Source: a virus
Taxonomy: Duplodnaviria > Heunggongvirae > Uroviricota > Caudoviricetes
Strand: one strand, 5' to 3'
DNA length: 10,489 nucleotides
Virus record (IMG/VR): IMGVR_UViG_2703718820_000012
Location: 1-10,489 of that record
Shown here in pieces: positions 1 to 10,489 of this stretch. The translations under genes were made by a program, and so were the position numbers. A model generated the notes under the pieces. The model was not told the origin of the DNA and searched no databases. It saw only the letters and a list, made by a program, of their open reading frames with translations. The number at the start of each line of letters is the position of its first letter. The first letter of the stretch is position 1.

Positions 1-1
1 G

Positions 2-688
2 GACCAGGAAAAATGGAGCGGCGACGGTGCCGGACTCAAGGCCATCACCGGCGGCGATGCGGTGTCCGTGGACCCGAAATACCGGGATGCGTACTCCACG
101 CATATCCCGGCGGTAATTCTGGCCGTGAACAATAACCCGATGCGCTTCACCGACCGCAGCGGCGGCGTGTCACGCCGGCGGGTGATTATTCACTTCCCGG
201 AACAGATAGCCCCGCAGGAGCGCGACCCGCAGCTTAAGGACAAAATCACCCGCGAGCTGGCGGTCATCGTGCGTCACCTGATGCAGAAGTTCAGCGACCC
301 GATGCTCGCCCGGTCACTGCTTCAGTCCCAGCAGAACTCAGACGAGGCGCTGAACATCAAACGGGATGCCGACCCGACGTTTGATTTTATCGGCTATCTG
401 GAAACCCTGCCGCAGACCAGCGGCATGTATATGGGGAACGCCAGTATCATCCCGCGCAATTACCGTAAATACCTCTATCACGCCTATCTGGCCTACATGG
501 AGGCAAACGGCTACCGGAATGTACTCAGTCTGAAAATGTTCGGGCTGGGGCTGCCGGTGATGCTGAAGGAATACGGACTGAATTACGAGAAGCGCCATAC
601 CAAACAGGGGATACAGACCAACCTGACGCTGAAAGAGGAAAGCTACGGCGACTGGCTGCCAAAATGTGACGACCCTGCAACAGCCTGA
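2..688 (+). CDS. P4 alpha-type primase/helicase, C-terminal portion (5' end upstream of window)
   Basis: Reading frame is open from the first base of the window (…DQEKWSGDGAGLKAITGGDAVSVDPKYRD…); the GTG at 62 chosen by the ORF track is internal, not a start. ILAVNNNP / RRRVIIHF segments resemble the end of an SF3 helicase core as in P4 alpha and D5-like primases. Stop TGA at 686-688 is followed by a strong terminator and TGTTCAC iterons, the binding motif of P4 alpha. Confidence 0.75.
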   Translation, partial: DQEKWSGDGAGLKAITGGDAVSVDPKYRDAYSTHIPAVILAVNNNPMRFTDRSGGVSRRRVIIHFPEQIAPQERDPQLKDKITRELAVIVRHLMQKFSDPMLARSLLQSQQNSDEALNIKRDADPTFDFIGYLETLPQTSGMYMGNASIIPRNYRKYLYHAYLAYMEANGYRNVLSLKMFGLGLPVMLKEYGLNYEKRHTKQGIQTNLTLKEESYGDWLPKCDDPATA

Positions 689-695
689 CCCACCT

Positions 696-720
696 GACCG
701 GCATCTGCCGGTCTTTTTTT
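696..720 (+). terminator. Rho-independent terminator of the primase gene
   Basis: GACCGGC (696-702) / GCCGGTC (707-713) 7-bp GC-rich stem, ATCT loop, then a run of seven T (714-720), starting 8 nt after the stop codon. Confidence 0.7.
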
Positions 721-738
721 ATCCCGACATCCCCCGAA

Positions 739-766
739 GGTGAACAATCCACTGTTCACTCTTCAC
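739..766. promoter_or_regulatory. Isolated iteron pair (GGTGAACA-N6-TGTTCAC inverted repeat) of crr/ori type
   Basis: GGTGAACA at 739-746 and TGTTCAC at 753-759 form an inverted repeat; a degenerate copy CTTCAC follows at 761-766. Same octamer family as the clustered repeats at 3037-3337. Confidence 0.5.
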
Positions 767-1149
767 TGTATATCCCCCGTACCAATATGAATTTAGTGAC
801 AAGAAAACATAAGTTGAACAGGAAAACCCAAAGAACTTTTTATCCCCCTCCAGACATTACCTGTCGCATCCATATTGAGCAAAAAATCTCATAGATAGAG
901 TGGTATTATTAACGTTTATCGCTTATCTAAATAGTAAAAACAAAATGCGATTCTAATTTTATTCACAGGGTAAATAACTGAAATTATCTAAATAACTATA
1001 AACCCCTCATATATATAAATAAATTATACCACATAACCAAAATACGATATTCTGCTGAGATCATTAAATTTAAGCTTATTTCAATGGCTATTACTCTAAA
1101 GATTTGTTAATAACCAGTCGTCATGAAAATATACTTACAGTTATGTTTA

Positions 1150-1158
1150 TGCTATAAT
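1150..1158 (+). promoter_or_regulatory. Candidate extended -10 promoter element (TGCTATAAT) for the HAD gene
   Basis: TGnTATAAT match 28 nt upstream of the ATG at 1186; no convincing -35 at proper spacing, which is tolerated by extended -10 promoters. Confidence 0.35.
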
Positions 1159-1185
1159 CAGTGACAAATATTTTGGGGAGGAATT

Positions 1186-1872
1186 ATGAAAATTTGTTTT
1201 TTCGATATGGAGGGGACTTTACTTGAAAAGAACTCATATTTAGATAATGGAAAAGTTGCACCGAGCGCGTGGACAGTACTTGCCAAAGAAATCAGCGAAG
1301 CTTGTTTTATTGAAGAGGAAAAAACAAAAGATTTATGGCTAGCTAATAAATATATCAGCTATACACAATGGATGAAAGAAACTGTTGAAATACAAATCAA
1401 ACATGGAATGAACAAAAATCACCTACAAACGGTATTATCTCAAGCGAAGATACAAAAAGGTGCTGTGGAACTTATTCATTATTTGAAAAGTCAAGGATAC
1501 TTAACAGTATTGATATCTGGTGGGTTTAAAGAATTAGCAGACCTAACTCAAAAGAGCCTAAAAATAGATCATGCATATAGTGCTTGTGAATATTTTTTTA
1601 GGAAAGATGGTAGCATTGAGCACTTCAATCTATTACCAACAGATGAGGAAGGGAAACTGGTCTTCATGAAACACCTTGCCTCTGAATATAACGTAGAACT
1701 TGAAAATTGTATTTTTGTTGGCGATGGGAAGAATGATGTTTTTATCGCCAAAAATGTAGGTACTTCTATAGCCTTCAATGCTCAGAGAGAATTAAGAGAA
1801 GTATCTACATTTATTGTAGACCAAGAAACACCTGATTTATCAGCGATTATTGACCTTATTAGAACTATTTAA
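1186..1872 (+). CDS. HAD-superfamily hydrolase, phosphoserine-phosphatase (SerB)-like
   Basis: Strong RBS (GGGGAGGA, 4-nt spacer) before ATG 1186. HAD motifs: I FFDMEGTL (Asp nucleophile, Glu at +2 instead of the usual Asp), II VLISGGF, III Lys in FMKHL, IV GDGKNDVFIAKNVGTSIAF, the last very like SerB GDGANDLPM…AG.GIAF. Visibly AT-rich compared with the flanks. Confidence 0.8.
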   Translation: MKICFFDMEGTLLEKNSYLDNGKVAPSAWTVLAKEISEACFIEEEKTKDLWLANKYISYTQWMKETVEIQIKHGMNKNHLQTVLSQAKIQKGAVELIHYLKSQGYLTVLISGGFKELADLTQKSLKIDHAYSACEYFFRKDGSIEHFNLLPTDEEGKLVFMKHLASEYNVELENCIFVGDGKNDVFIAKNVGTSIAFNAQRELREVSTFIVDQETPDLSAIIDLIRTI

Positions 1873-2673
1873 TCGATTTTGGAAGTCAAGTTTATCTTTA
1901 ACTATTTCCAGTTGTTCCTCTAACTGTTTTATCTTTGATTCAGACTGTAATTTGTACTGATTAAATTCATTTAAGTCAAATTTCTCTGAGAAATAGTAAT
2001 CTCTCCCAAAAGAAATTAGCGAGAGGAATAACCCAACAACAGCGATCATCGTTCCTATTTTAGTTATCGATATAATTGATAATTTTTCAGTTAGCTCTTT
2101 GCTTATCTGCTCTTTTAGAACTACTGGTTCTAAAAAAGTTTTAGGAAAATTACTTATATCTGAAACACGGTAAGATCTATATTCATTATATTGTTCTATA
2201 ACATCATAAGAACTAGGCACAGCAGAAGCCGGTTGATAATTTGGATTTTTTTCTATTTCATGGAATACAACTCTAAAGAAAGATTTATCTTGCTCACTAT
2301 CAGTAACTGGAAGATATTCCTCTACAGCTGAGAAATTAATTAACAGTGTTGATATCGGACCGTTATATCCAGAATCGATAATACCAGTATTGAGTGCAAG
2401 AAACCCCTTTTGCGATAATCTATTTTTTAAAAATACATATGCAATAAAACCCTCTGGCACATGAAGTATTTCTTCTGATATTACAAAAGCCGAATCTTGC
2501 GGTTTAAGTAAAGTTCTTCCGAGAGATCTTACATGATTTTTTTCATCTTTAAAAAGAATTTCCCTAATAGAAAGATCCACACTTGATTTATTAGAATAAT
2601 CTTTTGTGATTTTTTTGTTATATCTATCACAAACAAACCCATATTCAATTGCTTTTTGAGCACTAATCTGCAT
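1840..2673 (-). CDS. dUTPase/dCTP-deaminase-superfamily domain protein with predicted transmembrane helix and C-terminal coiled coil
   Basis: 277-aa ORF with AGGTGA RBS upstream of ATG (2671-2673). Central segment RLSQKGFLALNTGIIDSGYNGPISTLLINFS matches Dut motif III (GLIDSDYQGQLMISVWN) and the Dcd core (RIDPGWSG…LEFYN). Hydrophobic stretch LSIISITKIGTMIAVVGLFLSLISFG suggests one TM helix; the tail (KLQSESKIKQLEEQLEIVKDKLDFQNRL) is heptad-like. 3' end overlaps the HAD gene by 33 bp. Confidence 0.75.
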   Translation of the reverse strand: MQISAQKAIEYGFVCDRYNKKITKDYSNKSSVDLSIREILFKDEKNHVRSLGRTLLKPQDSAFVISEEILHVPEGFIAYVFLKNRLSQKGFLALNTGIIDSGYNGPISTLLINFSAVEEYLPVTDSEQDKSFFRVVFHEIEKNPNYQPASAVPSSYDVIEQYNEYRSYRVSDISNFPKTFLEPVVLKEQISKELTEKLSIISITKIGTMIAVVGLFLSLISFGRDYYFSEKFDLNEFNQYKLQSESKIKQLEEQLEIVKDKLDFQNRLNSSNKVNNR

Positions 2674-2893
2674 ACTTCACCTAACTTAGCTTATTCTATC
2701 GAACAATAATTGAATCACATAGTTATAATGTAACTAGACGAATATATCCAATGTTTTTGAATATATTATTGACGAAGCAAGTCAACTGATCAATACTGTG
2801 TATAAAAAAACAACATCTTCACCACATATAAAAAAAACATAAAATCATGGTACTACCTCAAAGTCCTGACTCCTGCTGAATTGCTTAATCATA

Positions 2894-2995
2894 AGAAGCG
2901 CCATACAAAACAGGGAATAAAGAGCAACCTGACGCAAAAAGAGGAAAGCTACGGCCACTGGCTGCCAAAATGTTACGCTCCTGCAACAACCCTAC
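2894..2995 (+). pseudogene. Relic of primase 3' end (direct-repeat copy 2); not an independent gene
   Basis: Encodes KKRHTKQGIKSNLTQKEESYGHWLPKCYAPATT, which parallels EKRHTKQGIQTNLTLKEESYGDWLPKCDDPATA at the end of the 2-688 gene. The original stop is lost, so the track ORF 2881-3093 reads through into terminator and iteron DNA. Confidence 0.65.
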
Positions 2996-2998
2996 CTA

Positions 2999-3022
2999 GA
3001 CCGTCCTCTGCCGGTCTTTTTT
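2999..3022 (+). terminator. Degenerate copy of the primase terminator
   Basis: GACCG (2999-3003) / CGGTC (3012-3016) stem, 8-nt loop, then a T run (3017-3022); positionally equivalent to 696-720. Confidence 0.4.
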
Positions 3023-3036
3023 ATCCCGGCCCCCCA

Positions 3037-3157
3037 GAAGATGAACAATCCACTGTTCACCTTTCACCGTATATTCACCTGTTATCATACTGAAATTAAA
3101 AGAGAAAAATGAAAGGTGAACAGTGTGAACAATCAAATCAAAAAAACTCTTTTCTCC
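3037..3157. repeat. crr-like replication element, 120-bp direct repeat unit 1 (TGTTCACC-type iterons)
   Basis: Contains TGTTCACC (3054-3061), TTTCACC, ATTCACC, and inverted GGTGAACA (3115-3122) / GTGTGAACA (3123-3131). Aligns nearly base-for-base with unit 2. Confidence 0.7.
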
Positions 3158-3215
3158 TTGTGTGATTTCAGTCCGGGGAATTAATCACCGGTATGAGTCA
3201 CACCGGCAGAATGCC

Positions 3216-3337
3216 GGAGGTGAAGAATCAAATGTTCACCCTTCACCCATTATTCACCACCTATCATACTGAAAGTAAAAGAGAAAACAGAAAGGTGAAC
3301 AGTGTGAACAGTTCTTTCGAAAAAAACTTTTTTCCTG
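3216..3337. repeat. crr-like replication element, 120-bp direct repeat unit 2
   Basis: TGTTCACC (3233-3240), CTTCACCC, ATTCACC, GGTGAACA (3294-3301), GTGTGAACA (3302-3310); offset 179 bp from unit 1. The ~58-bp spacer carries a hairpin CCGGCA-GAA-TGCCGG (3203-3217). Confidence 0.7.
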
Positions 3338-3620
3338 TACGATACAGCATCAATCAAAGTAAAAATGAGCTTTCATTCCACATTAACTTACAGCCATTGG
3401 TATACAATTAGGTATACGCACAAAAGCTGAATTAAATAAAATAATTAAAAATCAAAGAAATAAAATACTTATTCAAACTCCGCCAGCCCAATCATGATTG
3501 GACGGTGTAAGGACAACACCAACAAAAACAGGAAGTTAGCAGTCTCAGCAGGACACCGACCAGACGGTGAGGAGACAAAAAAGGATACGCAAAGGAGCCG
3601 CGGCTCTCGAGTGACACAAA

Positions 3621-3647
3621 AGCCCGCTTATGCGGGCTTTTTGTTTT
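3621..3647. terminator. Intrinsic terminator hairpin (A-tract / stem-loop / T-tract), orphan
   Basis: AGCCCGC (3621-3627) / GCGGGCT (3632-3638) stem with TTAT loop, preceded by AAAA and followed by TTTTTGTTTTT. No annotated CDS ends here. Confidence 0.55.
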
Positions 3648-3718: not shown

Positions 3719-4933
3719 ATGTATATGTCGGTTTTTCATAACTGGCTGCTTGATATCGCAAGCGGGAATTACTTTATCTACATCAAACGCCTTTCTGCAA
3801 ACGACACAGGCGCAACAGGTGGCCATCAGGTCGGACTTTATATCCCCTCAAATATCGTTGAAAAGCTTTTTCCATCAATCAATCATACTCGCGAACTGAA
3901 CCCTTCAGTCTTCCTTACTGCGCATGTATCATCCCATGATTGCCCTGATACCCAAGCACGCGCAATTTATTACAACAACCGTTATTTTGGTAAGACCCGA
4001 AACGAAAAAAGAATTACGCGCTGGGGGAGAGGAAGTCCATTACAGAACCCTGAAAATACAGGAGCCCTCACAATTCTTGCTTTCAGGTTAAACGAACAGA
4101 ACACTGACTGTTCCGAGGTAGATATATGGGTCTGCGTCAATCCCGATGAAGAGGATATCATCGAGTCTGCTATTGGCGAAATCATACCTGGAACCCTAAT
4201 TTCCGGCCCTGCCGGACAAATTTTGGGCGGATTGTCTCTTCAGCAAACTCCAGTAAATCATAAATATGTTATTCCTGAAGACTGGAAGAAGCGTTTTCCT
4301 TCTGGAAACGAAATTATTCAATATGCTGCTGGCCATTATGCTAAAAACTCCAAGGATCCAGATGAGCAACTGATTGACCGTCGGCGTGTCGAGTATGATA
4401 TTTTTCTACTCGTCGAGGAATTACATGTTCTTGATATTATTAAGAAAGGATTCGATTCTGTAGATGAGTTTATTGCATTAGCCAACTCTGTCAGTAATCG
4501 ACGTAAATCAAGGGCAGGCAAATCACTTGAACTTCACCTAGAGAAGCTTTTTATCGAGCACGGACTACGGCATTTCTCCACTCAGGCAGTTACTGAAGGT
4601 AATAAAAAACCAGATTTCCTGTTTCCTTCAGCAGAGGCATATCATAACGTTGAATTTCCTGTAGAAAACTTACGTATGCTGGCAGTAAAGACCACCTGCA
4701 AAGATCGCTGGCGTCAGATACTGAATGAAGCAGATAAAATCCATCAGGTACATTTATTTACACTGCAAGAAGGTGTTTCTTCAGCACAATACCGAGAAAT
4801 GAAAGATGCGGGTGTCAGACTCGTTGTACCATCAACTTTACATAAAAAATACCCAGAAGCAGTTAGAGAAGAATTAATAACGCTCGGAGCATTCATTACT
4901 GAGCTGATAGAGCTTTACGCTGAACTATCATAG
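3719..4933 (+). CDS. ecoRIIR: Type IIE restriction endonuclease, EcoRII family (CCWGG)
   Basis: 404-aa ORF whose N-terminus (M-Y-MSVFHNWLLDIASGNYFIYIKRLSANDTGATGGHQVGLYIP…) I recognise as EcoRII; the length matches my recollection of R.EcoRII. It is convergent with a Dcm-like methyltransferase, as in the EcoRII system. Start ambiguity: ATG 3719 has a poorly spaced SD, ATG 3725 has AAGGGA at 5 nt. Confidence 0.85.
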   Translation: MYMSVFHNWLLDIASGNYFIYIKRLSANDTGATGGHQVGLYIPSNIVEKLFPSINHTRELNPSVFLTAHVSSHDCPDTQARAIYYNNRYFGKTRNEKRITRWGRGSPLQNPENTGALTILAFRLNEQNTDCSEVDIWVCVNPDEEDIIESAIGEIIPGTLISGPAGQILGGLSLQQTPVNHKYVIPEDWKKRFPSGNEIIQYAAGHYAKNSKDPDEQLIDRRRVEYDIFLLVEELHVLDIIKKGFDSVDEFIALANSVSNRRKSRAGKSLELHLEKLFIEHGLRHFSTQAVTEGNKKPDFLFPSAEAYHNVEFPVENLRMLAVKTTCKDRWRQILNEADKIHQVHLFTLQEGVSSAQYREMKDAGVRLVVPSTLHKKYPEAVREELITLGAFITELIELYAELS

Positions 4934-4938
4934 GCTGA

Positions 4939-4961
4939 CTCCCGGCTTAAAAGGCCGGGAG
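4939..4961. terminator. Inter-convergent hairpin, possible bidirectional terminator between R and M genes
   Basis: CTCCCGGC (4939-4946) / GCCGGGAG (4954-4961) perfect 8-bp stem with 7-nt loop, inside the 34-bp gap between the two stop codons. No clear T-tract. Confidence 0.4.
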
Positions 4962-4967
4962 ATGTTC

Positions 4968-6401
4968 TCAAGGCTGCCCAGTCTTACCAGCATCAGCAGA
5001 AACAGCTTTGAGGATATAGGGTTCCAGAAGTCTGGCAACAGCTTCAAATACTGGCACCACAACTGAGTTACCGAACTGCCGATATGACTGAGTATCTGAA
5101 ACCGGAATACGGAATGGTTTCCCTCCAGGTTTTTCAAATCCCATAAGGCGTGCACACTCTCGGGGAGTCAGCCTGCGTGGTCGACGAGCCTGATTACTCT
5201 CATTCATAAAGTCAGCCTCTCCCGTTGCCATATCCCAACCACGATCAATAAGAATTTCTGATCCGTCTTTGTGATATCTGGCAGAAAGTGTGCGTGCAAT
5301 GCTTTCCTTATTCTCAGGATTGACCAACCCAAAGCCAAAACCATTCCCCTTGGCTGCATGCTTTTTGGCGTAGTTATAAAGGTACTCCCATAGTTTTGGC
5401 GTAAGTATATATTTACTGTCGACTACAGGCTCCAGCAATTCACCAAATGATGGGCGGTGTTCCGGATAAAAACGACTGATATCACGCAAGGTAAACCCCT
5501 TGTGAATATTCAGATCTCGTCTAAATCCGACCAGAACAATGCGTTCACGATGCTGAGGCAAAAAATGCTTCCCATCGATAATCTTTGGATCGTTTTTTCC
5601 CATTTCTGCAGCATCGGCAACTTCGTAGCCCAGCTCGTCAAGGGTCTCCATAATCACTTTGAAAGTTTTACCCTTATCATGGCTCTTCAGATTTTTGACA
5701 TTTTCCAGCACAAAAATTGCCGGTTTTTTTGCTCGTATAATACGTGCCACGTCAAAAAAAAGTGTTCCTTGTGCTTCACATTCAAAACCATGCGCACGAC
5801 CAAGTGAGTTTTTCTTACTAACACCAGCAAGGCTAAATGGCTGGCACGGGAACCCCGCAAGAAGCACATCATGATCCGGCACATGCTCATCAATATATGC
5901 ATAAGCATCCGTTTCCAATACATCGGTTTTATCACTCAGCGTGACTTCCCGAATATCGAGATTGAATTTATGCACCTGTTCATCGTTAAACCAGTTGGCT
6001 TTGTATGTACGCACAGCATCTTTATTCCATTCACTGGTAAAAACACACTGGCCTCCAATGGCCTCAAAACCTTTCCGTATCCCTCCAATTCCAGCAAATA
6101 AGTCAATGAAGCGGAAAGCATATTCCGGATGGTTTGCAGGTGGTTCTGGTAGCATCTTACGCAGAAGAGACTCTTCTACTGAAGTCAACGATTTTGGTAA
6201 ACACTTGCCATTAATCCAGCGGTTAATGGTTTCACGGCTCCACTCATTTTTTCCGACTTTTCTCAGTAATTCAGCCACATACTTCTGATCATAGATTTCC
6301 AGCACTTTCTCGATAAGCTTTTTATCATTTTCCTGTCGCAGCTTTTCTTCCGCCTCGGCTTCCTTCAGCAGATGCTGTGCCAACACTTCAAATTCAGACA
6401 T
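4968..6401 (-). CDS. ecoRIIM: DNA (cytosine-5)-methyltransferase, M.EcoRII/Dcm family
   Basis: C5-MTase motifs: [32 protein letters not shown]-terminal [10 protein letters not shown]; strongly collinear with E. coli Dcm as I recall it. Start placed at the Met 15 codon (ATG at 6399-6401, GGAGG RBS with 4-nt spacer), giving 477 aa; the track's 491-aa start at 6443 has no RBS. Confidence 0.85.
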
Positions 6402-6762
6402 AATTCCTCCAAGGGGTCTAATGGGTGAAACTTTATCACTCATTCAACCCAGAAGGAAATGTTTTATCTGGATATTTAAACAGTGACTACAACGTAATCT
6501 AGCACTGGTGATGCTTTGTTAGGCATAGAGAATCATTCTATATACGACTAATGACAGAAAAACAGCAGACAAGTAGTTTGTTCATAAATTAACGCATACT
6601 ATGTGTCTACGGTTTTCGAGACCGGTCCAATCATCAAACGAAACATAAAATTAGCTCACATTATGAGGAAAAGTATCTTTTTTGTACTATGTAAATTCAA
6701 AGGCTTAGCCTCATTTCTCCGATGGTTTTCTCAACACTACTGGTTGTGAGCCCTTGCAATGA

Positions 6763-7581
<819 letters not shown>

Positions 7582-7603: not shown

Positions 7604-7642
7604 CCGCAGCACGATCTTCTTCCATACGACGTGCTACGGTTT
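7604..7642. terminator. Possible bidirectional terminator hairpin between convergent GIY-YIG and invertase genes
   Basis: CCGCAGCACG (7604-7613) / CGTGCTACGG (7630-7639), one mismatch, 16-nt loop, AAA upstream and TTT downstream. The long loop makes this weak. Confidence 0.3.
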
Positions 7643-8196
7643 CATTTATCTCCGACCGGAAACTTCTTATACAGTGTCGATATACCAACATCATAGATGA
7701 TCGCCACCTTCTGGCGAGGAACGCCTGATGCAATTAATCGCCCGGCCTGCGCCCATTGTTCTGGTGTAAGTTTGGGACGACGTCCACCAATTCGTCCCTG
7801 TGCGCGAGCAGCTTCCAGTCCAGCTTTTGTTCGTTCAACAATCAGTTCTCGTTCCATTTCAGCCAGGGCACCCATCACATGAAAGAAAAAACGCCCCATC
7901 GGTGTGCTGGTATCAATAGCATCCGTCAGACTGCGAAAATTAACGCCACGTTCGCGCAACTCCTCAACCAGAATGACCAGATGCCGCATACTACGCCCCA
8001 GCCGATCCAGCTTCCAGACAACCAGAGTGTCACCTGCCGATAATGTCCTGAGCAGTTTTTTCAGTCCCGGCCTTTCGGACTTTGTACCGCTTATCTTGTC
8101 TTCAAAAATCAGCTCGCATCCTGCACAGTTCAGCGCATTACGTTGTAGATCTGTGTTCTGGTCATTTGTTGATACGCGTACATAGCCAATAAGCAT
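7642..8196 (-). CDS. Serine-recombinase DNA invertase, Pin/Gin/Cin/Hin family
   Basis: From the internal Met: MLIGYVRVSTNDQNTDLQRNAL…GDTLVVWKLDRLGRSM…MGRFFFHVMGALAEMERELIVERT…GRIGGRRPKLT…, the catalytic Ser region and C-terminal HTH typical of Gin/Pin. Start set at ATG 8194-8196 (185 aa); the 12-codon upstream extension in the track is not supported. Confidence 0.85.
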   Translation of the reverse strand: MLIGYVRVSTNDQNTDLQRNALNCAGCELIFEDKISGTKSERPGLKKLLRTLSAGDTLVVWKLDRLGRSMRHLVILVEELRERGVNFRSLTDAIDTSTPMGRFFFHVMGALAEMERELIVERTKAGLEAARAQGRIGGRRPKLTPEQWAQAGRLIASGVPRQKVAIIYDVGISTLYKKFPVGDK

Positions 8197-8250
8197 GGTA
8201 GATCCCCCTGACAAAAGCAGGAATGATGCCATCTGCTCGTTATTTCTGCA

Positions 8251-8276
8251 TTTTCATAAACGTTGGTTTGGGAGAA
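8251..8276. repeat. Left inversion crossover site (hix/gix/pix-like 26-bp site, TT core at 8263-8264)
   Basis: TTTTCATAAACG-TT-GGTTTGGGAGAA; inner half-site identical to the right site; AAACN-NN-GGTTT architecture. Confidence 0.7.
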
Positions 8277-8630
8277 GCGGCAAAACGGAATGTAGGTAAC
8301 GGGCAAAACCAAATTCCGGATATGGCGGCGTTTGCCAGTTCACTTTCATCAACGGGTTTTCAAAAACTCCCTTCAGGTCTGATTATTCAGTGGGGTATTG
8401 TCAGTGGAGCATCAAACTATACGGTGACTTACCCGGTAACATTCCCAAATCGTTCACTTGCGCTGTTGGCTGTGCCACATACAACGTCGGTGGCTGGTAT
8501 ATCTGCAATGGGCATAGCGAACTGTTCTGATATCAGCAAATCACAGTTCTATATAATTGTTGGCGGTATATCTCAGGGAGAAATTGTCAAATATGAAAGG
8601 TCCTGTTTTTGGGTAGCAATCGGTGTATAG
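8265..8630 (+). CDS. Silent alternative tail-fibre C-terminal (receptor-binding) cassette
   Basis: Begins [20 protein letters not shown]…, paralleling [20 protein letters not shown] in the expressed fibre. It would be fused in frame to the constant part after inversion; the ATG at 8223 is fortuitous. Confidence 0.6.
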   Translation, partial: GLGEAAKRNVGNGQNQIPDMAAFASSLSSTGFQKLPSGLIIQWGIVSGASNYTVTYPVTFPNRSLALLAVPHTTSVAGISAMGIANCSDISKSQFYIIVGGISQGEIVKYERSCFWVAIGV

Positions 8631-8638
8631 GTATATCT

Positions 8639-9034
8639 ATGATTTATTTCTCAAAATCGACTAATGGTTTTTTCTTTGATGGTATAAACAGCGACATGCC
8701 TGCTGACATTGTTGAGATAAGTACAGACTTATACAATGAATTAATTGCCGGACAGCAGGAAGGGGGGAAATTAATCACGTCAGATGAAAATGGTTTACCG
8801 GTACTGAAATCTCCGGCGATTGATTATGTCGCACGTGCTGAAAATCAGCGAATGCAGTTACTTGCTCATGCCGATAATGTCACAGCTGACTGGCGGGTGG
8901 AATTAATGCTTGGTGATATCAGCAGTACAGATAAAGAAAAACTATCTGCCTGGATGGACTACAAAAAAGAAGTAAAAGCCGTCGACACTTCGACGGCTCC
9001 TGAGATTAGCTGGCCTGAGTTACCGGAGGTGTAG
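8639..9034 (+). CDS. Tail fibre assembly protein (alternative copy, Tfa/U' type)
   Basis: MIYFSKSTNGFFFDG…[17 protein letters not shown]; the C-terminal motif is typical of Tfa/gpU chaperones. ATG at 8639 preferred over the TTG at 8609. Confidence 0.7.
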   Translation: MIYFSKSTNGFFFDGINSDMPADIVEISTDLYNELIAGQQEGGKLITSDENGLPVLKSPAIDYVARAENQRMQLLAHADNVTADWRVELMLGDISSTDKEKLSAWMDYKKEVKAVDTSTAPEISWPELPEV

Positions 9035-9425
9035 GCCATTCAATATCTGGCGCACCGGAAGTATCGACCAGTTCCAGTGCGTCCAGGTAATCCAGCCACA
9101 AATTATATTGTGCCAGTTCCTCACCTTTCAGCCGGCCAATAGCCGCTTTACCAGGCCATTGTTTACTGTTCATATAATCGTTGGCCTGTTCAATAAGTAT
9201 ATTTTTCATTCCCTCCGCTTCAGCTATTTCCTGTTCATGTGTCTTCGCTGGATATTCAGTAAGTACAGGGTAGTTATCCGGGCTATTGATAATAATTTTC
9301 CCCGTACTCTGACCATTCATAAGTTCATAATAAAGAGCATCTTCAATATCGAAAGCATCATCGGGAATATCGCTGTTGTTTTCAGAGAAAAATCCCTGAA
9401 CAGATGGGGACCATTTCATTTTCAT
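9006..9425 (-). CDS. Tail fibre assembly protein (Tfa/U type, currently in expressed orientation)
   Basis: [16 protein letters not shown]…[16 protein letters not shown]. Start ATG overlaps the stop of the upstream fibre gene (ATGA coupling at 9422-9425); 3' end overlaps the other tfa by 29 bp. Confidence 0.75.
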
Positions 9426-10489
9426 AATTTCCCAATTCCTAAAATATGGACATCATCAGCCTTACGGGCATTCCAGGTGACAATTACATCGGTAGAGTGA
9501 CGATTAACTGAGATTGCGTATGCTTCGTTAGTCGAGCCAGAAACTTTTGTGGCAAACACAGCAAACAGGACACCAAATGACTGGGGCCATTTATAGCCTG
9601 ACAGCTGATAATTACCATTATCCAGTGTTACAGCTTTGACTGCTGCACTTGATGGAATCGTCAGCCACTGGAGTATCAACCCTCCTGGCAAAAGTTGTTT
9701 TCCATAAAAATCCCTCACACCACTAAATGAAACCATATCCGGTATCTGATTTTCCCCTGTTCCCACGTCCCGTTTTGCCGCTTCTCCCAAACCAAGGTTT
9801 TCGAGAGCCGTTTGCACAGTGCCATCCGATTTGATATCGCCAAACGGATTCTTGCGGCTTAACAGCAGCGCACGAAGTGCGGTAAGCATCTGGTCATGCC
9901 GCCCTTTCTCCAGGCTGGCACCGGAGGCCTCCACCACGCTACAAAGTTCTTCCTGCAACATGTCAAAGTAGTCATCATCCAGATCGGTGGCAGGTGTGCC
10001 GGTCTGGGGGTTACCACGGGTATCCGGTTTGTCGGTGTTACTGCCCTGACCGTTCTCTCTGTGACGATGCCCGTTATAGGCAAGCCGCATCGCTGACATG
10101 GTGGTGCCGCCGGAGTCGCACAGGTCTTTCACCTGTCCGGTCACTTCCAGGTCCATTTCAAAACGTGCTTCAGGTGCATTGCGAAACGTGATCGTTTTAC
10201 CTGCACCGTCCACCACGATCCCCTCCCGGGTCAGCGTCACGGACTGCCCCTGATCGTCATAGACAGCCACCTCGCCCGTCTGCAGCCCTTTCAGGCGGTA
10301 GCGACGGTCCGACACCGTAACAACCACCGCATGAGAACGGTCGCCATCCGGAAACAACACCACCGCTTCCGCACCGCTGTTTGCCCTTGCGGTAAAACCG
10401 TAGGGTTCAAGATGTTCAACCCCGGCTTTGGGTTCACCGGCAATCAGGGACACATCCACGGTCTGTAGTGGCACACTAAATTTGGCCAC
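9422..10489 (-). CDS. Phage tail fibre protein, 3' portion (constant region plus currently fused variable tip); 5' end beyond window
   Basis: Open frame from the window edge to the stop at 9422-9424. The constant/variable junction at [13 protein letters not shown] coincides with the right crossover site. The upstream part (…FPDG…DSGGTT…HRH…) loosely resembles baseplate-spike (gpV-like) proteins, but this is tentative. Confidence 0.65.
9782..9807. repeat. Right inversion crossover site (hix/gix-like, AA core at 9794-9795)
   Basis: TTCTCCCAAACC-AA-GGTTTTCGAGAG; about 21 of 26 positions match hixL (TTCTTGAAAACCAAGGTTTTTGATAA) as I recall it. Confidence 0.7.

What the first reader, a model, noticed from the sequence alone, without database searches (positions are those of the whole stretch)
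3037..3337. P4 crr-like element: two 120-bp direct repeats packed with TGTTCACC iterons, now displaced ~2.3 kb from the primase gene
Seen: two near-identical ~120-bp units 179 bp apart, each with direct and inverted TGTTCACC-type octamers, plus one lone iteron pair at 739-766 immediately after the primase terminator. Established: P4 alpha binds TGTTCACC iterons in ori and crr, and I recall crr as two 120-bp direct repeats. Inference: this is the cis replication element of a P4-type replicon, and the cargo cassette sits between the primase gene and the bulk of crr. The spacer hairpin CCGGCA-GAA-TGCCGG (3203-3217) reuses the terminator stem sequence seen at 698-711.
Basis: partly seen in the sequence, partly recalled or inferred. 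Interest (0 to 1): 0.5.

Follow-up and report, generated by a model that had tools for sequence, protein, structure and literature searches.

The report
P4 satellite replication element, split by cargo
This is the well-known "crr" replication element of a P4-type phage satellite; it is ordinary in itself, but a two-gene cargo cassette with its own worn-out third crr repeat has been spliced in front of it.

Summary
Window 3035-3333 is a homolog of the phage P4 cis replication region (crr). It is 91% identical to the annotated P4 crr. It has two 120-bp direct repeats 179 bp apart, and all ten P4 "type 1" iteron positions are kept (79 of 80 bases). The primase (alpha) C-terminus encoded upstream is 227/228 identical to P4's.

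Three amendments:
- The "lone iteron pair" at 739-766 is the head of a third, decayed 120-bp crr repeat (734-841).
- The intact crr is preceded by a 113-bp pseudogene fragment of the alpha 3' end and a weakened terminator (2884-3022). The locus is therefore a fusion of two satellite right ends, not a simple insertion.
- The spacer hairpin is confined to the P4/E. coli lineage.

The cargo is a HAD phosphatase plus a membrane-anchored dUTPase/dCTP-deaminase-like protein. It occupies the minor "primase-att" hotspot described in 2026. The same cassette, with the same duplicated alpha-3'/terminator/crr architecture, recurs in Klebsiella. In a survey of Enterobacterales satellites, about one in five loci with close alpha relatives had crr displaced or split by cargo.

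The crr itself is known biology. The composite architecture is a modest new detail.

The parts
2..688 (+). 3' end of the alpha primase-helicase gene (C-terminal 228 aa; stop codon at 686-688)
   Evidence: Pfam Pox_D5 and DUF5906. It is 227/228 identical to P4 alpha residues 550-777.
696..719 (+). Intact alpha transcription terminator (stem GACCGGC/GCCGGTC plus a T-run)
   Evidence: Terminator scan. Folds at -14.1 kcal/mol, z = -5.4. Homologous to the P4 'talpha' feature.
734..841 (.). Decayed third crr 120-bp repeat (copy A). Iterons: 739-746 exact, 753-760 and 813-820 with one mismatch each, the third position ruined (TATCCCCC), the fifth deleted.
   Evidence: 560-772 is about 98-99% identical to P4, and 773-841 only about 60%. 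Homology to the intact single repeat of the E. coli E1 satellite runs on into the cargo.
842..2789 (.). Low-GC cargo cassette (about 25-36% GC). HAD-IB phosphatase at 1186-1872 (+) and a 277-aa dUTPase/dCTP-deaminase-like protein with a hydrophobic segment, read as one TM helix, at 1840-2673 (-). The genes are convergent.
   Evidence: Composition. Pfam, NCBIfam and PDB matches. Translations. The gene pair is conserved in other mobile elements.
2790..2879 (.). Remnant of the right arm and half att core (TGACTCCTG) of a selC-type P4-like satellite. This is the right edge of the imported segment.
   Evidence: Local alignment to the E. coli E1 satellite right end up to its tRNA-Sec att core: score 50 against shuffles of 24 +/- 4.3 (maximum 41). 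The same half-core sits at the equivalent junction in Klebsiella.
2884..2996 (+). Pseudogene fragment of the alpha 3' end (copy B)
   Evidence: 85% identical to 578-690. RefSeq annotates it as a partial poxvirus D5-like pseudogene in BEN2908. No alpha gene in 5,426 E. coli genomes is more than about 86% identical to it.
2998..3022 (+). Weakened copy of the alpha terminator
   Evidence: Two stem mismatches; -7.9 against -14.1 kcal/mol for the intact copy.
3035..3153 (.). crr 120-bp repeat 1. Iterons at 3040-3047 (-), 3054-3061 (+), 3072-3079 (+), 3115-3122 (-), 3124-3131 (-).
   Evidence: 93% identical to P4 repeat 1, with the iterons mapped position by position.
3154..3213 (.). crr spacer with the hairpin CCGGCA-GAA-TGCCGG (3203-3217)
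   Evidence: 88% identical to P4. Folds at -14.5 kcal/mol. The spacer and hairpin are not conserved across genera.
3214..3333 (.). crr 120-bp repeat 2. Iterons at 3219-3226 (-), 3233-3240 (+), 3251-3258 (+), 3294-3301 (-), 3303-3310 (-).
   Evidence: 96% identical to P4 repeat 2.
3397..3418 (.). Two GGTATAC-type repeats, probably integrase arm sites
   Evidence: The same motif is repeated next to the integrase gene of the BEN2908 satellite. Their position matches the P4 attP arm repeats. Function is inferred.
3472..3490 (.). Right attachment-site core of the satellite (TTCAAACTCCGCCAGCCCA, an imperfect copy of the ssrA 3' end). The neighbouring prophage begins beyond it.
   Evidence: Compared with the ssrA 3' end. 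Genomes without the satellite begin to match the window at 3472-3488.

Best explanation
Window 3035-3333 is the cis replication region (crr) of a P4-like satellite integrated at ssrA.

**How it works (established for P4, inferred here).** The C-terminal domain of the alpha primase-helicase binds the TGTTCACC-type iterons. There are ten in crr and six in the distant origin. The two alpha-bound sites cooperate in cis so that replication can start at ori.

**Local architecture.** The locus is a composite of two satellite right ends. The complete alpha gene and its terminator are followed by a decayed crr repeat, the HAD/dUTPase-like cargo and half of a selC-type att core. This segment is the right end of one satellite. 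Next come an alpha-3' pseudogene fragment, a weakened terminator, the intact two-repeat crr and the ssrA-type att, which form the right end of another. The distal crr is the one kept by selection. The proximal repeat became redundant and is decaying.

**Likely route (inferred).** Two P4-like elements joined, for example by integration of one into the alpha gene of the other. Alpha-alpha homologous recombination then resolved the junction.
For: **Shown**
- 91% identity (E = 3e-130) to the annotated P4 crr.
- All ten iteron positions are kept: 79/80 iteron bases are identical to P4 against 201/220 non-iteron crr bases (Fisher p = 0.019). The adjacent alpha remnant is only 83% identical.
- Across 22 crr sequences from several genera, iteron columns are 95% conserved, against 79% for the rest of the repeats and 53% for the spacer (p = 3e-9).
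- The alpha C-terminus is 227/228 identical to P4's.
- In E. coli BEN2908 (99.7% identical to window 1-3642), the same satellite carries all the P4 core genes. It also has six exact TGTTCACC between sid and the regulator gene, as in P4 ori.

**Composite origin**
- The alpha-3'/terminator/iteron module is duplicated.
- Identity to P4 drops sharply at 772/773.
- Homology to the E. coli E1 selC satellite runs through repeat, cargo and att arm.
- The Klebsiella satellite has the same layout: decayed proximal repeat, same cargo, half att core, a longer alpha remnant, then terminator and intact repeat.
- Cassette-bearing satellites with no distal crr keep an intact proximal repeat.
Against: - No binding or replication data exist for this element.
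- The origin is not inside the window and is seen only in a near-identical proxy genome.
- The looping model of crr action is from my memory of the P4 literature. The classic papers were not in the library.
- The route to the composite is inferred from junction sequences. The att-core remnant is only 9-12 nt long.
- The two lineages could descend from one ancestral event followed by recombination, rather than from two independent events.
Confidence: 0.88

Rival explanations
1. The proximal decayed repeat (734-841) is the working crr, and the distal two-repeat crr is a passenger left over from another satellite.
For: A single 120-bp repeat is the only crr in about 17 of the surveyed satellites and in three hosts of this same cassette. 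The proximal copy sits in the canonical place, about 50 nt after the alpha stop.
Against: The proximal copy keeps only one exact iteron and two with one mismatch; the third is ruined and the fifth deleted. The distal copy keeps 79/80 iteron bases while the alpha remnant beside it has drifted to 83%. In Klebsiella the proximal copy is likewise decayed and the distal one intact.
Confidence: 0.07
2. The iteron array acts mainly as a negative, copy-number or incompatibility element that titrates or 'handcuffs' alpha, rather than as an activator of initiation.
For: Iteron arrays outside origins do this in P1 (incA) and other iteron plasmids (general knowledge). P4 can live as a plasmid and has a negative regulator, Cnr, that increases alpha binding to DNA (from memory). 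Nothing in the sequence distinguishes activation from control.
Against: In P4 the region was defined genetically as required in cis for replication, as the GenBank feature name states. Every surveyed cassette-bearing satellite keeps at least one intact repeat, which fits an essential role better than a dispensable control role.
Confidence: 0.1
3. The whole satellite is a defective relic, and the repeats are conserved only because the insertion is recent.
For: The element sits in a crowded ssrA island next to another prophage. The cassette is rare, at 3 of 5,426 complete E. coli genomes.
Against: The alpha remnant has diverged about 15% from every sampled alpha gene, so the junction is old, yet the iterons beside it are intact. 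The BEN2908 copy has uninterrupted int, psu, delta, sid, regulator and alpha genes. Its length of about 12.3 kb is close to P4's 11.6 kb.
Confidence: 0.06
4. The duplication arose in place: a tandem duplication of alpha-3'/terminator/crr, followed by insertion of cargo between the copies, with no second satellite involved.
For: The two flanks are in direct orientation and collinear. Several other satellites have cargo between two repeat-1-type copies with no alpha remnant.
Against: The cassette's left part is continuous with a divergent crr repeat, and its right edge carries the arm and half-core of a selC-type att site found at the end of another satellite. Identity to P4 changes sharply at 772/773.
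Confidence: 0.12

Closest known systems
Phage P4 crr (cis replication region), X51522 4291-4590
   Same: 91% sequence identity. Two 120-bp direct repeats separated by about 60 bp. Five type 1 iterons per repeat in the same order and orientation. Preceded by an alpha terminator sequence and followed by the att region. The cognate alpha C-terminus is 227/228 identical.
   Different: - It lies 2.35 kb rather than 45 bp from the functional alpha stop codon.
- What precedes it is an alpha pseudogene fragment and a weakened terminator.
- A third, decayed repeat lies upstream of the cargo.
- The att type is ssrA rather than leuX.
- The first iteron carries one substitution (GATGAACA).
The minor 'primase-att' defence hotspot of P4-like satellites (Nucleic Acids Res 2026, PMC13586616)
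   Same: The cargo lies between the primase gene and the att site. It has low GC and its own genes, and it varies between otherwise similar satellites.
   Different: That paper describes the hotspot at gene level and never mentions crr. Here the cargo is seen to lie before, within or after the crr repeats, often flanked by repeat-1 copies and sometimes by alpha-3' remnants. The cargo in this window is not a recognised defence system.
Distant iteron sites that cooperate by protein-mediated looping in iteron plasmids (e.g. R6K pi protein joining the gamma iterons to the alpha/beta origins; P1 incA)
   Same: Clusters of initiator-binding octamers lie kilobases from the origin and act in cis. They tolerate changes in distance (general knowledge; here 4.8 kb without cargo against 7.1 kb with it).
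   Different: The initiator is unrelated: P4 alpha is a primase-helicase, not a Rep/pi-type protein. There is no sequence relationship. This is a comparison of working principle only.
'HAD-like hydrolase + transmembrane protein' anti-T7 system from the P4 psu-int hotspot (Rousset et al. 2022, PMC9122126)
   Same: A two-gene satellite cargo made of a HAD hydrolase and a membrane protein.
   Different: PADLOC models, which I recall include that system, do not match either protein. The partner here has a dUTPase/dCTP-deaminase-like domain and one hydrophobic segment that I read as a single TM helix. It also sits in a different hotspot.

Membership tests
P4 crr (cis replication region) | Sequence homology to the P4 crr | tested here: met
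   91% identity over 343 nt, E = 3e-130, to X51522 4291-4635. Repeats are 93% and 96% identical to P4's.
P4 crr (cis replication region) | Two ~120-bp direct repeats separated by ~60 bp | tested here: met
   3035-3153 and 3214-3333, spacing 179, 80% identical to each other. P4 spacing is 180.
P4 crr (cis replication region) | Five type 1 (TGTTCACC-like) iterons per repeat, in the P4 order and orientation | tested here: met
   All ten annotated P4 positions have a counterpart; 79/80 bases are identical. Enrichment is 5 exact matches against 0.29 expected.
P4 crr (cis replication region) | Located just downstream of the alpha gene terminator and upstream of att | tested here: inconclusive
   It is 140 nt upstream of the att core and directly after an alpha-3'/terminator sequence. 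That copy, however, is a pseudogene remnant. The functional alpha stop codon is 2.35 kb away.
P4 crr (cis replication region) | Cognate alpha protein with the iteron-binding C-terminal domain | tested here: met
   The 228 C-terminal residues are 227/228 identical to P4 alpha. The rest of the gene lies outside the window and is intact in BEN2908.
P4 crr (cis replication region) | A matching ori with type 1 iterons in the same replicon | tested here: met
   Not in the window. In BEN2908 (99.7% identical over window 1-3642) there are six exact TGTTCACC at L003 9152-9255 between sid and the regulator gene, as in P4.
P4 crr (cis replication region) | Bound by alpha and required in cis for replication | not testable with these tools
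   Needs gel shift or footprinting and replicon assays.
P4-like satellite | Core gene set: int, psu, delta, sid, alpA-type regulator, ash/epsilon, alpha | tested here: met
   Seen in proxy genomes BEN2908 and ETEC1717, which carry the same element at ssrA. Only the alpha 3' end is in the window.
Primase-att cargo hotspot of P4-like satellites | Variable accessory genes between the primase gene and the att site | tested here: met
   ETEC1717 has 747 bp and no gene between alpha and the next prophage, whereas this element has a 2.3-kb insert. Other cargoes occupy the same place in 12-13 of 59 surveyed loci.
Primase-att cargo hotspot of P4-like satellites | The cargo is an anti-phage defence system | tested here: inconclusive
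   No PADLOC hit. The gene pair is conserved in satellites, an integrative island and a Vibrio P2-like prophage beside an RM system. That is suggestive only.

The most novel reading that the evidence does not exclude
Cargo at the primase-att hotspot of P4-like satellites is acquired by capturing the right end of another satellite (crr repeat, cargo and att arm). Integrase-mediated insertion at a secondary site in the resident alpha gene would start the event, and alpha-alpha homologous recombination would complete it. This leaves redundant crr copies, of which selection keeps only one. The 120-bp crr repeats then serve as portable homology arms that let cassettes be swapped or lost. On this reading the replication element doubles as the recombination scaffold of a defence hotspot.
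Probability: 0.3. Interest if true: 0.45.

Novelty: new member of a known kind. Interest (0 to 1): 0.25.

Why it matters
The crr itself adds nothing new. It confirms that this is a P4-type replicon with P4's own iteron specificity.

The natural variation around it is more useful.
- Satellites tolerate 0.7-2.3 kb between the primase gene and crr.
- Many carry a single 120-bp repeat.
- Among hosts of this cassette, at least one intact repeat is always kept while a redundant copy decays.

These patterns are consistent with one repeat being sufficient and the ori-crr distance being flexible.

The observations also tie a recently described minor defence hotspot to a defined DNA element, and they suggest how its cassettes move. 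The HAD plus dUTPase/dCTP-deaminase-like pair is a candidate anti-phage module worth testing.

Tried and rejected
- **Classic P4 replication papers.** Statements on alpha binding and looping therefore rest on my memory and on the GenBank feature tables.
- **A P4 cosmid paper.** It mentions crr only as an inactive part of a construct.
- **tRNA scan.** None in the window.
- **Rfam.** No family reaches its gathering score.
- **PADLOC.** No model matches the cargo. There is only a sub-threshold HAD hit.
- **Exact att search.** No exact match to the ssrA 3' end; the att core is an imperfect copy, found by eye.
- **Hairpin as a conserved crr feature: rejected.** It is absent from the spacers of other genera, which align poorly and contain indels. 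It has no T-run, so it is not a terminator.
- **Alpha remnant as a recent import from a divergent live alpha lineage: not supported.** Nothing above about 86% identity exists in 5,426 E. coli genomes.
- **Satellites with alpha below 80% identity (Pantoea, Erwinia, Serratia).** Nearly all show no TGTTCACC cluster and probably use another iteron. I did not pursue this.

Full report
**1. What is in the sequence**

The two direct repeats are real. Copies at 3039-3153 and 3218-3332 are 80% identical, with start-to-start spacing 179.

TGTTCACC occurs five times in the window against 0.29 expected, and no shuffle out of 200 reaches five. Every copy lies at 739-746 or within 3054-3301. With one mismatch allowed there are 21 matches against 7.9 expected, and 13 of them lie in 739-820 and 3040-3310.

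They fold at -14.5 and -14.1 kcal/mol.

**2. Identity**

Window 2991-3333 is 91% identical (E = 3e-130) to P4 X51522 4291-4635. GenBank annotates that stretch as "crr (cis required region for replication)", with two "crr 120bp direct repeat" features, ten "ori type 1 repeat" features and the alpha terminator.

Mapped position by position, the repeats are 3035-3153 and 3214-3333. All ten P4 iteron positions have a counterpart, and 79 of 80 iteron bases are identical. Non-iteron crr bases are 201 of 220 identical (Fisher p = 0.019). The repeats are 93% and 96% identical to P4's, and the spacer 88%.

The alpha C-terminus encoded at 2-688 is 227/228 identical to P4 alpha residues 550-777. From memory of Ziegelin et al., this part of the protein binds the iterons. 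The same octamer specificity is therefore expected here.

**3. The replicon as a whole**

The window begins inside alpha, so the origin is not in it. E. coli BEN2908 carries the same element, 99.7% identical over window 1-3642.
- It is integrated at ssrA and has integrase, psu, delta, sid, regulator, ash-like and alpha genes.
- Six exact TGTTCACC lie between sid and the regulator gene, matching the six type 1 repeats of P4 ori.

The related satellite in ETEC1717 lacks the cargo. Its crr starts about 50 nt after the alpha stop, and its ori-crr distance is about 4.8 kb, against 7.1 kb in BEN2908.

The satellite ends at 3472-3490 with an imperfect copy of the ssrA 3' end. Putative integrase arm repeats (GGTATAC) lie just before it at 3397-3418. 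Genomes without the satellite start matching the window at 3472-3488.

The rest of the window belongs to a neighbouring prophage end. It encodes EcoRII, a Dcm-type methylase, a GIY-YIG protein, a Pin-type invertase and tail-fibre genes.

**4.

*The "lone iteron pair" is part of a whole repeat.* It is the head of a complete but decayed 120-bp crr repeat.
- Window 560-772 is about 98-99% identical to P4.
- From 773 to about 841 the alignment to the second half of P4 repeat 1 drops to about 60%.
- The third iteron is ruined, the fourth has one mismatch, the fifth is deleted, and the terminal A-run/T-run is still recognisable.

*The intact crr is not simply pushed away from the primase gene.* It is preceded by a 113-bp fragment of the alpha 3' end (2884-2996, 85% identical to 578-690) and a weakened terminator (2998-3022, -7.9 kcal/mol).
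- RefSeq calls this fragment a partial pseudogene in BEN2908.
- No alpha gene in 5,426 complete E. coli genomes is more than about 86% identical to it.
- It is therefore an old, drifting remnant, while the iterons next to it are intact.

*The spacer hairpin is lineage-specific.* It is present only in the P4/E. coli lineage. In crr sequences from other genera the spacer aligns poorly, has indels and lacks the hairpin. A vestige of the terminator from the duplication that made the two repeats is plausible, but it is not a general crr feature.

**5. Origin of the arrangement**

The same cargo, 86% identical, occurs in a different P4-like satellite integrated at tRNA-Sec (selC) in E. coli E1. The order there is alpha, terminator, one intact crr repeat, cargo, att, with no crr after the cargo.

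Homology between the window and E1 is continuous from alpha through the repeat into the cargo. In both, the cargo starts right after the repeat's terminal "AACTTTTT".

At the right edge, window 2790-2879 aligns with the right arm of the E1 satellite up to the first half of its att core, TGACTCCTG. The alignment scores 50, against 24 +/- 4.3 (maximum 41) for shuffles. The alpha remnant follows immediately.

Window 773 to about 2880 is therefore the right end of a selC-type satellite: repeat tail, cargo and att arm. It has been placed in front of the right end of an ssrA-type satellite.

A Klebsiella pneumoniae satellite with a P4/leuX-type att has the same layout. Its order is a decayed proximal repeat, the same cargo, the half att core (TGACTTCTGT), a longer alpha remnant of about 240 nt, an intact terminator, one intact crr repeat, and att.

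In Citrobacter braakii, Enterobacter hormaechei and E. coli E1 there is no distal crr, and the proximal repeat is intact.

The pattern across hosts of this cassette is that at least one intact repeat is always kept and a redundant copy decays. I infer that two satellites fused. One possibility is integration of one into the alpha gene of the other, resolved by alpha-alpha recombination. A single ancestral event followed by recombination in crr cannot be excluded.

**6. How common this is**

I fetched 80 loci from one genome per species using the alpha C-terminus as query, then scanned downstream of each alpha stop codon for iteron clusters. Among the 59 loci with alpha at least 80% identical:

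| crr arrangement | Loci |
|---|---|
| Canonical two-repeat crr, starting about 50 nt after the stop | about 15 |
| Single repeat | about 17 |
| Whole crr displaced by 0.7-2.2 kb | 7 |
| One repeat at the canonical place, further repeats 1.2-2.1 kb away | 5-6 |
| No cluster detected | about 10 |

In the split cases both flanking copies are repeat-1 type, 79-88% identical to each other, with no alpha remnant.

The inserts have low GC (0.35-0.46, against 0.58-0.61 for alpha) and encode diverse proteins.

[quoted passage not shown] It never mentions crr.

Across 22 two-repeat crr sequences, iteron columns are 95% conserved, other repeat columns 79%, and spacer columns 53% (Mann-Whitney p = 3e-9). 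The A-run/T-run that closes each repeat is 89% conserved.

**7. The cargo**

Gene 1186-1872 encodes a HAD-IB, SerB-like phosphatase.

Gene 1840-2673 (minus strand) encodes a 277-aa protein. It has an N-terminal dUTPase/dCTP-deaminase-like domain, then a hydrophobic segment that I read as one transmembrane helix, then a C-terminal region that I judged by eye to be coiled coil. The domain match is weak:
- Pfam DCD scores 25 bits, against a threshold of 27.
- PDB dUTPases match at E of about 2.5e-6.

No PADLOC model matches either protein.

The convergent gene pair is conserved at about 42-43% identity in two other kinds of mobile element. One is an E. coli integrase/AlpA island. The other is a Vibrio cholerae P2-like prophage, where the pair sits beside an LlaJI-type restriction system.

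At 72-88% identity it sits just downstream of alpha in Citrobacter, Klebsiella and Enterobacter satellites.

Rousset et al. validated a "HAD-like hydrolase + transmembrane protein" anti-T7 system from the other P4 hotspot. The logic is similar, but membership of that family is not shown here.

**8. Verdict**

The finding is a correct recognition of a known element, so the novelty of the crr itself is nil. Three points are modestly new:
- This locus has three repeats and is a composite of two satellite right ends.
- The same design recurs in Klebsiella.
- The primase-att hotspot is physically interleaved with the crr repeats.

No experiment was possible. Alpha binding, the cis requirement and the route of cassette capture remain inferences.

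Noticed in passing
window 1186-2673: The convergent gene pair (HAD-IB phosphatase plus a 277-aa dUTPase/dCTP-deaminase-like protein with one hydrophobic segment, read as a TM helix) is a conserved two-gene module. It recurs in P4-like satellites of four genera, in an E. coli integrative island, and in a Vibrio cholerae P2-like prophage next to an RM system. It has no PADLOC match. It is a candidate uncharacterised anti-phage or nucleotide-pool module.
   Followed up: partly
window 3719-6443: An EcoRII-type restriction endonuclease (404 aa) and a convergent Dcm-type C5 cytosine methylase (491 aa) sit at the end of the neighbouring prophage, followed by a LEM-3-like GIY-YIG protein (6808-7581). 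This looks like a defence cluster at the prophage end that abuts the satellite att site.
   Followed up: partly
window 7642-9800: A Pin/Gin-type serine invertase (7642-8232, minus strand) lies next to 68-nt inverted repeats (8258-8325 and 9733-9800, 84% complementary). The repeats bracket tail-fibre C-terminal and tail-fibre assembly genes, as in a typical invertible host-range switch.
   Followed up: no
L004 10655-10810; window 2776-2793: The E. coli E1 satellite has a long (GGTCAGCA)n microsatellite of about 19 units at the right edge of the cargo. The window keeps only a degenerate stretch of about two units (AGCAAGTCAACTGATCAA), and Klebsiella has one unit.
   Followed up: no
window 3141-3153 and 3321-3333; alignment: Each 120-bp crr repeat ends in a conserved A-run/T-run (AAAAAAACTTTTTT). 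It is 89% conserved across genera and is the point after which cargo begins in several satellites. It may be a bend or an easily melted element, or a preferred recombination point.
   Followed up: partly
L063-L085 (Pantoea, Erwinia, Serratia, Pectobacterium and related loci): Nearly all satellites whose alpha C-terminus is below 80% identical show no TGTTCACC cluster downstream of alpha; three or four have only small clusters of 3-4 matches. They probably use a different iteron that co-varies with the alpha DNA-binding domain.
   Followed up: no
L002 and L003 (whole satellites at ssrA): Total satellite length stays similar whichever hotspot is filled. It is about 11.8 kb with a 2.9-kb SIR2/ATPase cargo in the psu-int hotspot and no primase-att cargo. 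It is about 12.3 kb with a small psu-int cargo plus the 2.3-kb primase-att cassette. This is consistent with a capsid size limit forcing a trade-off between the two hotspots.
   Followed up: no
L039, L040, L046, L048, about 60 nt upstream of the distal crr repeat: A conserved motif (GCTTCCGC..TCGCTCACAGCAGA.TATA.GCCTGTACCTATAGCCTG) precedes the distal repeat-1 copy in four split-crr satellites, taking the place of the alpha terminator. Its origin is unknown.
   Followed up: no
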